From NCBI GenBank assembly GCA_951406725.2, contig OX597831.1, forward strand, positions 28,520,001 to 28,584,000: a DNA stretch of 64,000 nt, given 5' to 3'. The translations under genes and the position numbers were made by a program. Shown here one piece after another: positions 55,517-58,700 of this stretch. Below the pieces are notes generated by a model. It was not told the DNA's origin. It made no database searches and saw only the letters and a program-made list of their open reading frames with translations. This DNA comes from Octopus vulgaris. Lineage: Eukaryota. Positions within the stretch are counted from its first letter, which is position 1; each line of letters starts with the position of its first letter.

Positions 55517-55613
55517 ACGGGAAGGTTTACGTAAATAAACAAAAGACGAAGGCAGGTGGAGTACAAACAAACAAATGTATTAGTATATATATATATATAT
55601 ATACATATATATG

Positions 55614-55646
<33 letters not shown>

Positions 55647-55652
<6 letters not shown>

Positions 55653-55733
55653 AATATAAGAGAGTGGTCACTATATGGCTCACTCTAGCACCAGTTAATC
55701 CAAAAGGTTTCAACCACGAAAATACATGTTTCC
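55647..55733 (-). repeat. 87-bp inverted copy of part of the array unit, at the array 5' junction
   Basis: Reverse complement of 56098-56184 (GGAAACATG...TATTTATTTT). It directly abuts (TA)n on the left and the first forward unit on the right. Confidence 0.95.
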
Positions 55734-58700
55734 TATTAAATTAGTATCTAATTCTCTCACCCTTATTAATTAATTATAATTATGCTGCATTTATTTCTAA
55801 ATGCTGTATTTGTTTTCCGTGAAAGTTTGGCGCGCTGTTAGTTGGCGCATTTGAATTATAACGTCGGATGTAATCAATTGAACCACACGCGTATTTATCG
55901 TTATGGTAAAATCTGGCGTGTGATTGAGTGGATTTCATCCAGATAGTTTTGGCTGACGAGCTACAAATGGATTTTTTTTGTAAGTAAAATTACATTTAAT
56001 TCATTAATAGCGAAACAATTGTCCCAAAATAATCTGTATTTTTGTTATTTTTTATTTGCCCTGTCCGTGTGAGCTAACAATCGTACTGACTTTCATGGGA
56101 AACATGTATTTTCGTGGTTGAAACCTTTTGGATTAACTGGTGCTAGAGTGAGCCATATAGTGACCACTCTCTTATATTTATTTTGTAAAAATAATATAAT
56201 ATGTTATAAAATATTATAATAATCCAGGTTTCTCGTAGCACTAGGCCACTTGGTGTTGAATAGATATACTATTAAATTAGTATCTAATTCTCTCACCCTT
56301 ATTAATTAATTATAATTATGCTGCATTTATTTCTAAATGCTGTATTTGTTTTCCGTGAAAGTTTGGCGCGCTGTTAGTTGGGGCATTTGAATTATAACGT
56401 CGGATGTAATCAATTGAACCACACGCGTATTTATCGTTATGGTAAAATCTGGCGTGTGATTGAGTGGATTTCATCCAGATAGTTGTGGCTGACGAGCTAC
56501 AAATGGATTTTTTTGTAAGTAAAATTACATTTAATTCATTAATAGCGAAACAATTGTCCCAAAATAATCTGTATTTTTGGTTATTTTTTATTTGCCCTGT
56601 CCGTGTGAGCTAACAATCGTACTGACTTTCATGGGAAACATGTATTTTCGTGGTTGAAACCTTTTGGATTAACTGGTGCTAGAGTGAGCCATATAGTGAC
56701 CACTCTCTTATATTTATTTTGTAAAAATATTATAATATGTTATAAAATATTATAATAATCCAGGTTTCTCGTAGCACTAGGCCACTTGGTGTTGAATAGA
56801 TATACTATTAAATTAGTATCTAATTCTCTCACCCTTATTAATTAATTATAATTATGCTGCATTTATTTCTAAATGCTGTATTTGTTTTCCGTGAAAGTTT
56901 GGCGCGCTGTTAGTTGGGGCATTTGAATTATAACGTCGGATGTAATCAATTGAACCACACGCGTATTTATCGTTATGGTAAAATCTGGCGTGTGATTGAG
57001 TGGATTTCATCCAGATAGTTTTGGCTGACGAGCCACAAATGGATTTTTTTTGTAAGTAAAATTACATTTAATTCATTAATAGCGAAACAATTGTCCCAAA
57101 ATAATCTGTATTTTTGTTATTTTTTATTTGCCCTGTCCGTGTGAGCTAACAATCGTACTGACTTTCATGGGAAACATGTATTTTCGTGGTTGAAACCTTT
57201 TGGATTAACTGGTGCTAGAGTGAGCCATATAGTGACCACTCTCTTATATTTATTTTGTAAAAATATTATAATATGTTATAAAATATTATAATAATCCAGG
57301 TTTCTCGTAGCACTAGGCCACTTGGTGTTGAATAGATATACTATTAAATTAGTATCTAATTCTCTCACCCTTATTAATTAATTATAATTATGCTGCATTT
57401 ATTTCTAAATGCTGTATTTGTTTTCCGTGAAAGTTTGGCGCGCTGTTAGTTGGGGCATTTGAATTATAACGTCGGATGTAATCAATTGAACCACACGCGT
57501 ATTTATCGTTATGGTAAAATCTGGCGTGTGATTGAGTGGATTTCATCCAGATAGTTTTGGCTGACGAGCTACAAATGGATTTTTTTTGTAAGTAAAATTA
57601 CATTTAATTCATTAATAGCGAAACAATTGTCCCAAAATAATCTGTATTTTTGTTATTTTTTATTTGCCCTGTCCGTGTGAGCTAACAATCGTACTGACTT
57701 TCATGGGAAACATGTATTTTCGTGGTTGAAACCTTTTGGATTAACTGGTGCTAGAGTGAGCCATATAGTGACCACTCTCTTATATTTATTTTGTAAAAAT
57801 ATTATAATATGTTATAAAATATTATAATAATCCAGGTTTCTCGTAGCACTAGGCCACTTGGTGTTGAATAGATATACTATTAAATTAGTATCTAATTCTC
57901 TCACCCTTATTAATTAATTATAATTATGCTGCATTTATTTCTAAATGCTGTATTTGTTTTCCGTGAAAGTTTGGCGCGCTGTTAGTTGGGGCATTTGAAT
58001 TATAACGTCGGATGTAATCAATTGAACCACACGCGTATTTATCGTTATGGTAAAATCTGGCGTGTGATTGAGTGGATTTCATCCAGATAGTTTTGGCTGA
58101 CGAGCTACAAATGGATTTTTTTTGTAAGTAAAATTACATTTAATTCATTAATAGCGAAACAATTGTCCCAAAATAATCTGTATTTTTGTTATTTTTTATT
58201 TGCCCTGTCCGTGTGAGCTAACAATCGTACTGACTTTCATGGGAAACATGTATTTTCGTGGTTGAAACCTTTTGGATTAACTGGTGCTAGAGTGAGCCAT
58301 ATAGTGACCACTCTCTTATATTTATTTTGTAAAAATATTATAATATGTTATAAAATATTATAATAATCCAGGTTTCTCGTAGCACTAGGCCACTTGGTGT
58401 TGAATAGATATACTATTAAATTAGTATCTAATTCTCTCACCCTTATTAATTAATTATAATTATGCTGCATTTATTTCTAAATGCTGTATTTGTTTTCCGT
58501 GAAAGTTTGGCGCGCTGTTAGTTGGGGCATTTGAATTATAACGTCGGATGTAATCAATTGAACCACACGCGTATTTATCGTTATGGTAAAATCTGGCGTG
58601 TGATTGAGTGGATTTCATCCAGATAGTTGTGGCTGACGAGCTACAAATGGATTTTTTTTGTAAGTAAAATTACATTTAATTCATTAATAGCGAAACAATT

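What the first reader, a model, noticed from the sequence alone, without database searches (positions are those of the whole stretch)
55584..55745. Array begins with an 87-bp inverted unit fragment inside (TA)n: footprint of retrotransposition rather than simple satellite expansion
Seen: (TA)n, then the reverse complement of 56098-56184, then forward units starting mid-unit, with at most 1 nt of overlap. The inversion lies at the 5' side relative to the ribozyme-sense strand. Established: Penelope-like insertions often have a 5'-truncated inverted terminal segment and partial tandem structure. Inference: the array was inserted by PLE reverse transcription of a circular or multimeric RNA, ending in a template switch. 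A PLE with RT and GIY-YIG exists in this window (17586-19230).
Basis: partly seen in the sequence, partly recalled or inferred. Interest (0 to 1): 0.7.

Follow-up and report, generated by a model that had tools for sequence, protein, structure and literature searches.

The report
Twin-primed ribozyme array, extra-long Penelope tail
The short back-to-front piece is one of two arms of a single insertion of a non-coding 536-base repeat carrying a hammerhead ribozyme motif; all 64 two-armed copies examined end at two different fixed points about 130 bases apart, so a Penelope-type retrotransposon enzyme likely copied one RNA, probably a circle, from both cut DNA strands.

Summary
The forward array has 18 units of 536 bp plus about 45 nt and also ends in (TA)n. 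It belongs to a young family of about 1,000 or more loci, each unit with a type I hammerhead motif. Arms end at two fixed sites, A and B, 127-130 nt apart. All 64 two-armed insertions examined have one A and one B end (43 of 43 chosen without regard to the partner end), and both arms share a haplotype. Two young autonomous Penelope-like (PLE) families in the genome follow the same rule (22 of 22), with 32-42-nt tails. So the 87-bp piece is likely a second, independently primed cDNA, not the end of one template switch. The window's own PLE is broken and shares no detectable DNA similarity with the unit; the partner enzyme was not identified. A circular template is favoured but not shown, and the longest arrays, this one included, show some later turnover. 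Known class (animal non-LTR retrozyme, PLE footprint); the long folded tail and the strict A/B rule are the new parts.

The parts
55584..55646 (.). Left part of the (TA)n target tract (impure)
55647..55733 (-). Short arm: 87-nt inverted copy, unit positions u366-u452. Its outer (3') end is start site A (...CTCTCTTATATTTATTTT then TA)
   Evidence: exact match to 56098-56184; same end at other loci; 474 exact A junctions genome-wide
55733..55733 (.). Central junction of the two 5'-truncated arms, 1-nt overlap (the commonest class, 13 of 62)
55733..64000 (+). Long arm: tandem 536-bp units about 99% alike. It continues beyond the window to G000:C18:28585419-22 (18 units plus 43-46 nt, about 9.69 kb) and ends at start site B in (TA)14
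55940..56036 (+). Type I hammerhead motif of the first unit: stem I, core CUGACGA at 55953, stem II with about 50-nt extension, GAAA, stem III AC-AAUU-GU, predicted cut after 56023. Repeated in every unit
   Evidence: fold z -4.89; stem I covaries across subfamilies; Rfam HH9 20.1 bits, E 0.062, below the gathering score of 52
56185..56314 (+). 'Tail' between site A (56184) and site B (56311-56314), 127-130 nt. It holds the 3' strand of a long-range helix that encloses site A, and a terminal hairpin
17586..19230 (+). Old, broken, 5'-truncated endonuclease-bearing PLE (RT and GIY-YIG remnants); context only, not the mobiliser of this array

Best explanation
This locus is one insertion of a young non-coding, hammerhead-bearing element, likely written into a (TA)n tract by a Penelope-like RT/endonuclease supplied in trans that primed two cDNAs, one from each cut target strand, on what was probably a single RNA. 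Shown: two tail-out arms, fixed ends A and B in (TA)n, one of each per two-armed insertion, a shared haplotype in both arms, and the same rule in autonomous PLEs of this genome. Inferred steps: (1) The enzyme, likely a dimer, binds the folded A-B module of the RNA and nicks both strands of the (TA)n tract. (2) One 3'-OH starts copying at A (here 87 nt) and the other at B (here 9.7 kb). (3) Long arms arise by going round a 536-nt RNA circle, made by hammerhead cleavage and ligation, with strand displacement. (4) The two cDNA ends are joined with little or no homology and each templates the other's second strand. One-armed copies arise when a single cDNA joins the (TA)n directly. Some later unit shuffling occurred in the longest arrays. 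Confidence is about 0.9 for PLE-type double priming and about 0.6 for the circle.
For: A/B rule: 62 two-armed insertions found by script in 99 stretches. 60 scored A/B directly, 2 (L037, L062) have an internal rearrangement but A/B outer ends, and 2 more (L084, L086) have tiny A arms: 64 of 64, with one complex locus (L111) left out. 43 of these were picked without regard to the partner end. On contig C1, all 18 tail-out pairs among 35 A and 80 B exact junctions are A-B, none A-A or B-B. Every arm listed for the first 39 loci ends in (TA)n. Autonomous PLE-2 16 of 16 and PLE-1 6 of 6 two-ended insertions are A/B. Same source for both arms: identical in 22 of 33 loci against 44 of 1053 cross-locus pairs; mean distance 0.10% against 1.75%. 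Arrays made in one step from one unit: 210 of 243 within-locus repeated variants are fixed in all covering units, 11 of 23 locus-private ones too, and L108 (12.7 units) has only singletons. No pile-up of 5' ends at the ribozyme cut (2 of 124; 2.5 expected), as expected for a ligated circle or an uncut multimer. Literature: a PLE protein nicks and extends both strands, starts at two internal sites that bound the tail, and is predicted to be a dimer (PMC11167929); an inverted 5'-truncated copy, a tail at one end and (TA)n bias are PLE features (PMC8557442).
Against: No autonomous partner found: neither young PLE nor the window's PLE shares DNA similarity with the unit, and their tails are 32-42 nt against 127-130 nt. 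No RNA, circle or cleavage was observed. Heterogeneous arrays exist. The focal array has 114C in units 1 and 13, 230C in units 3 and 15, and 217G in units 2, 6 and 13. L109 repeats a 4-unit variant block. L054 alternates a core-mutated unit in one arm only. These point to later turnover, a multimeric template or consensus error, and 12 of 23 private repeated variants are not fixed. In vitro, the anole PLE showed no difference in start site between strands and did not need ribozyme cleavage (PMC11167929). In 5 of 33 loci the partner arm was not the nearest haplotype.
Confidence: 0.7

Rival explanations
1. Same double priming, but the template was a long uncut read-through transcript of a source array rather than a circle.
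For: No 5'-end pile-up at the ribozyme cut. Heterogeneous arrays FOCAL, L054 and L109. The anole PLE uses unprocessed RNA in vitro (PMC11167929). Autonomous PLE-2 forms tandems of 4,271-bp units.
Against: New variants fixed in every unit of both arms (210 of 243; 11 of 23 private) require repeated passage through a single unit, which linear copying of ageing arrays does not give. In L109 and L054 the two arms do not show the same variant order from their 3' ends.
Confidence: 0.2
2. One cDNA from site B that finishes with a template switch or fold-back, giving the 87-bp inversion.
For: The junction has only 1 nt of overlap; the inverted arm is short here.
Against: The outer end of the inverted arm is the fixed site A, which is also the only 3' end of one-armed copies (10 of the 35 exact A junctions on C1) and heads arms up to 6.6 kb. 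Both arms exceed one unit in 21 of 60 loci.
Confidence: 0.04
3. A short two-armed insertion whose long arm was later enlarged by unequal exchange, as in an ordinary satellite.
For: This is the longest arm of the sample (18 units), and variants recur at a 12-unit spacing. The 2026 preprint favours local amplification for retrozymes.
Against: Other long arrays show no shared minority variants apart from homopolymer noise (L058 11+4 units, L090 8+4, L108 12.7), so long arms can be born at full length. This rival concerns length only; the ends still need retrotransposition.
Confidence: 0.25
4. Assembly artefact, or a DNA transposon (foldback or MITE) with terminal inverted repeats.
For: The flanks are low-complexity and the arms are inverted.
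Against: The same anatomy occurs at 63 other loci on many contigs. The two ends are different sequences, 130 nt apart in the unit, so they are not terminal inverted repeats. One-armed copies exist and 5' ends are scattered.
Confidence: 0.02

Closest known systems
Animal non-LTR retrozymes (Cervera and de la Pena 2020, PMC7229834, passages read; Li, Clavereau and Pollet 2026, 10.64898/2026.07.22.740005, part 1 of 5, Discussion and passages read)
   Same: Non-coding tandem repeats of low GC with a type I hammerhead in each unit, dispersed, proposed to be mobilised by PLEs through circular RNA.
   Different: The unit is 536 bp against 150-450 bp in the 2020 paper, and stem II carries a 50-nt extension. 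The term searches found no 'inverted' in the 2020 text and no 'tail' in the preprint (its one 'inverted' is a reference title), so neither main text appears to describe the two-armed footprint. RNA circles are shown there, not here.
Endonuclease-bearing Penelope-like elements, Neptune/Nematis type (Craig et al. 2021, PMC8557442, abstract and passages read)
   Same: 5' truncation, partial tandems, inverted 5'-truncated copy, tail at one end only, (TA)n bias. Non-autonomous head-to-tail derivatives such as MRC1 are described.
   Different: No ORF; the tail is 127-130 nt rather than 30-40 bp; one end of each type held in 64 of 64 cases, where the paper says 'often'; no sequence link to an autonomous family was found.
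Poseidon PLE of Anolis in vitro (Frangieh et al. 2024, PMC11167929, parts 1-2 of 4 read)
   Same: Two internal RT start sites bounding the tail, both target strands nicked and extended, AT-rich target, predicted dimer.
   Different: That study saw no strand difference in start site and did not model inverted insertions. Its sites are 30-40 nt apart.
L1 twin priming (recalled, not read)
   Same: Both target strands prime cDNA, giving a 5' inversion with a near-blunt central junction.
   Different: In L1 the second primer lands at variable internal positions and the arms barely overlap. Here both starts are fixed and the arms overlap extensively (the B arm passes site A in 50 of 60 loci).

Membership tests
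Animal non-LTR retrozyme | Tandem non-coding repeat of a few hundred bp, low GC, dispersed | tested here: met
   536-bp units, GC about 0.32; 2,147 exact ribozyme-half matches genome-wide; many contigs
Animal non-LTR retrozyme | Type I hammerhead in each unit, short helix III with palindromic loop | tested here: met
   Core, G10.1-C11.1 and AC-AAUU-GU present; stem I covaries over 46 distinct variants. The Rfam score is below its gathering threshold
Animal non-LTR retrozyme | Self-cleavage | not testable with these tools
   Needs in vitro transcription
Animal non-LTR retrozyme | Expressed as linear and circular monomer RNA | not tested
   Only contigs were available and both read-laying runs went to DNA junctions
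PLE-mobilised insertion | Two fixed 3' ends with a tail at one end | tested here: met
   Sites A and B; 474 and 932 exact junctions; 64 of 64 A/B
PLE-mobilised insertion | Tail length 30-40 bp | tested here: not met
   127-130 nt here and about 105-120 nt in older relatives; autonomous PLEs of this genome 32-42 nt
PLE-mobilised insertion | 5' truncation, partial tandems, inverted 5'-truncated copy | tested here: met
PLE-mobilised insertion | (TA)n or AT-rich target | tested here: met
   All arms of the first 39 loci end in (TA)n; the empty site was not seen
PLE-mobilised insertion | Sequence shared with the pLTR of an autonomous partner | tested here: inconclusive
   None with PLE-1, PLE-2, the window's PLE or other fragments in the fetched loci; the genome's PLE families were not surveyed in full
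Autonomous PLE | RT and GIY-YIG ORF | tested here: not met
   The 536-bp unit is too short, and a PLE protein gave no tblastn hit in the array
DNA transposon (MITE or foldback) | Identical terminal inverted repeats at both ends | tested here: not met
   The two ends are always different sites; one-armed copies are common

The most novel reading that the evidence does not exclude
Every two-armed PLE-type insertion is made by one asymmetric RT dimer whose two subunits are each committed to one of two start sites on a single RNA. This retrozyme lineage has stretched the spacing from about 35 to 130 nt and folds the excess into conserved helices, so the enzyme would read a structure, not a sequence or a distance. 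That would let an RNA circle with no sequence likeness to any PLE be rolled twice, once from each target strand, and so write satellite-like arrays in one step.
Probability: 0.35. Interest if true: 0.75.

Novelty: new variant of a known kind. Interest (0 to 1): 0.5.

Why it matters
How PLEs make inverted and tandem insertions is called unresolved in PMC8557442, and how animal retrozyme arrays arise (reverse transcription or local expansion) is left open in the 2026 preprint. This family gives a sharp rule to test: one A end and one B end per event, both arms from one haplotype. It also comes with a 536-nt candidate template and two young intact PLE proteins from the same genome, so the existing in vitro PLE assay could test the dimer and circle models directly. 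The class itself is known, and earlier notes of this scan report the same footprint in other families, which lowers the surprise.

Tried and rejected
Read support: contigs of public runs were laid on 55000-56900 (X1, X2, X3, X6) and on 55690-55776 (X1-X4). No listed piece bridged 55733 (32 pieces shown, 909 not shown), and the repeat-rich left flank was skipped. The runs may be other individuals and contigs drop rare forms, so this is no evidence either way. Rfam at gathering scores found no ribozyme. Pfam found nothing convincing in the two window PLE frames; their identity rests on tblastn to an intact relative that has RVT_1 at E 6e-8. Partner search: blastn of the unit against L131-L180 plus the window PLE and against L211-L260 gave only AT-rich noise or non-coding relatives; the 3' ends of other PLE fragments showed no matching tail. 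The alternating core-mutated unit in L054 first looked like proof of a dimer circle; I dropped that because the other arm lacks it. A first junction script mis-scored L044, L058 and L109 through an internal palindrome and over-extension; the counts come. Target-site duplication cannot be read inside (TA)n. Look-ups of earlier findings near this place and by sequence returned nothing. Paper searches found no report of a strict one-of-each rule or a tail over 100 nt; most subscription papers on Penelope are not in the library, and no supplements were read.

Full report
Observation. Window 55647-55733 is the reverse complement of 56098-56184 over 87 bp without mismatch, the forward 536-bp periodicity begins at 55733 (1-nt overlap), and an impure (TA)n tract lies at 55584-55646. 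The window is G000:C18:28520001-28584000 of a 2.8-Gb animal genome. The array continues 1.4 kb beyond the window and ends after 18 units plus 43-46 nt in (TA)14.

The unit. Each unit carries a type I hammerhead motif on the + strand: stem I, CUGACGA, a 4-bp stem II with a 50-nt extension, GAAA, and a 2-bp stem III with a palindromic AAUU loop before a UC cut site. Rfam scores it below threshold (HH9, 20.1 bits, E 0.062). Stem I changes in compensating fashion across older subfamilies: among 46 distinct variants the core-adjacent pair is GC in 25, AU in 15, CG in 3 and unpaired in 3. A short helix III with a palindromic loop is typical of animal type I hammerheads, which are thought to act as dimers (PMC4209133, passages). 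Cleavage was not tested.

The family. A genome search returned 243 matches from 40 scored of 974 candidates. Exact patterns give 2,147 ribozyme halves, 474 junctions of one end type and 932 of another, so about a thousand loci or more. I examined 99 stretches: the focal locus, 38 found by whole-unit similarity and 60 chosen from the junction lists on C1 and C2. The 3' ends fall at two sites, A (unit position 452) and B (43-46 of the next unit), 127-130 nt apart. Every arm listed for the first 39 loci runs into (TA)n; one locus (L044) ends at a third position. The 5' ends are scattered.

The rule. The script found 62 tail-out two-armed insertions. 60 scored A/B directly and two have an internal rearrangement but A/B outer ends. 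Two more have A arms of only 20-40 nt (L084, L086). One complex locus (L111) was left out. That makes 64 of 64. Of these, 21 were fetched because an A and a B junction lay close together and do not test the rule; the other 43 do. Independently, among 35 A and 80 B exact junctions on C1, all 18 tail-out pairs within 15 kb are A-B (chance about 4e-6 if ends were chosen independently). The focal locus fits: short arm A, long arm B. Central junctions are near-blunt: 13 of 62 overlap by 1 nt, 10 are blunt, 15 overlap by 2-22 nt and 24 have 1-63 extra bases.

Comparison with autonomous elements. The window's PLE is 5'-truncated, split over frames and has in-frame stops, and its closest copies in the genome are 74-84% identical in protein, many with stops. 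Two young intact families were found: PLE-1 (776-aa frame, RVT_1 E 6e-8) and PLE-2 (775-aa frame, 150 of 150 scored hits 100% identical over the query). Both have a C-x4-C-x2-C linker before the GIY-YIG domain, which PMC8557442 assigns to the Neptune and Nematis clades, and both end in (TA)n. Their two-ended insertions are A/B in 6 of 6 and 16 of 16 cases, with tails of about 42 and 32-35 nt. Neither shares DNA similarity with the 536-bp unit. The footprint is thus that of PLE enzymes, but the partner is not named.

One source for both arms. Where at least 150 positions could be compared, the arms are identical in 22 of 33 loci against 44 of 1053 cross-locus pairs (mean 0.10% against 1.75%), and the partner arm is nearest or tied in 28 of 33. 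A non-coding element gets its protein in trans, so two RNAs drawn from the cell's pool would often differ; one RNA, or sibling RNAs of one source, is the simpler reading (inference). The B arm passes site A in 50 of 60 loci and both arms exceed one unit in 21 of 60, so the same sequence was copied twice, unlike L1 twin priming (recalled).

Circle or multimer. For the circle: 210 of 243 variants seen twice within a locus are fixed in all covering units, including 11 of 23 private ones, and long arrays such as L058, L090 and L108 show no shared minority substitutions apart from homopolymer noise. Fixing new variants across many units needs passage through one unit. 5' ends are not enriched at the ribozyme cut (2 of 124; 2.5 expected), which argues against free linear monomers. 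Against: the focal array has three variants shared by non-adjacent units, L109 repeats a four-unit block, and L054 alternates a core-mutated unit in one arm only. These may reflect later exchange, multimeric templates or consensus error. No RNA was observed.

The long tail. Older relatives at 70-75% identity keep the hammerhead and both end sites, with tails of about 105-120 nt. In an alignment of 11 representatives, an 8-bp helix that encloses site A has 5 pairs with changes on both sides and 95.5% of cells paired. A terminal hairpin is 87.9% paired with little covariation. None of 500 shuffles reached the overall covariation score, and slid controls fall to 22-45% paired. The rows are related, fall into about three lineages, and the structure was drawn from these sequences, so this is suggestive only. 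Folding could bring sites 130 nt apart to a spacing like the usual 30-40 nt (inference).

Mechanism and literature. Craig et al. 2021 (PMC8557442; abstract and passages) describe partial tandems, an inverted 5'-truncated copy, a 30-40-bp tail often at one end only and (TA)n bias, and call the mechanism undefined. Frangieh et al. 2024 (PMC11167929; parts 1-2 of 4) show nicking and extension of both strands, two internal start sites bounding the tail and a predicted dimer, with no strand difference in start site. Cervera and de la Pena 2020 (PMC7229834; passages) show circular RNAs from animal hammerhead repeats. Li et al. 2026 (part 1 of 5, Discussion and passages) link them to PLEs by phylogeny and favour local amplification. 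Together these make double target-primed reverse transcription from A and B the best explanation, with rolling on a circle as the likely but unshown source of the tandem units. Six paper searches found no statement of the strict rule or of a tail this long; the library lacks most subscription papers and no supplements were read.

Verdict. A real feature of a known class: an animal non-LTR retrozyme with a PLE insertion footprint. It is a variant by its 536-nt unit and 130-nt structured tail. Earlier notes of this scan (read after my analysis) report the same two-site, two-arm pattern in other families; they are unchecked and not independent support. Interest 0.5.

Noticed in passing
L241 (G000:C1:27839500-27849499) and L175 (G000:C14:38229000-38238999): Both young autonomous PLE families carry a separate ATG-started upstream ORF of about 400-430 aa, beginning just after the B site. 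It overlaps the RT/GIY-YIG frame with a -1 offset near a U-rich run. This may be ribosomal frameshifting or splicing; canonical endonuclease-bearing PLEs are described as single-ORF (PMC8557442).
   Followed up: partly
L241-L260 and L161-L180: In both autonomous families the element's own sequence has a short (AT)n run right after each start site, which could pair with the (TA)n primer. The 536-bp unit has only about 3 nt of such match.
   Followed up: partly
L054 (G000:C3:179745800-179755700): Five of ten units in the B arm carry CUGAAAA instead of CUGACGA (core G8 changed), mostly in alternation; the A arm lacks it.
   Followed up: partly
L109 (G000:C1:158284700-158294699): A four-unit block of variants is repeated twice in the 12-unit arm, and two of the variants also occur in the other arm in a different order.
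   Followed up: partly
L094, L096, L097, L095, L098, L100: One-armed copies often begin at TATA-like spots of the unit (u35-39, u422-423) joined straight to (TA)n, suggesting microhomology attachment of the cDNA end to the target.
   Followed up: partly
L181-L210, L248, L161, L070; window 8974-9212 and 54677-54738: Older relatives of the unit (70-75% identity or less) share the A and B ends; remnants lie in this window too.
   Followed up: partly
window 55517-55583 and L031:2451-2560: Both neighbours of the target tract look like ends of other TA-targeting repeats. The left one has 20 matches elsewhere in the fetched loci; the right one resembles a PLE end with a hammerhead-like GAAACATGT. The tract would be a nesting site.
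   Followed up: partly
window 34884-35576: Fragment of eukaryotic 18S rRNA (77.7 bits) interrupted by about 250 extra bases, apparently a dispersed pseudogene piece.
   Followed up: no
window 53751 (-), 29287 (-), 45769 (+): Further hammerhead-like cores outside the array from a loose pattern scan; not verified.
   Followed up: no
L091 (G000:C1:21587781-21595781): Three copies of a different hammerhead-bearing repeat with the same AC-AAUU-GU stem III but unrelated stems I and II.
   Followed up: no
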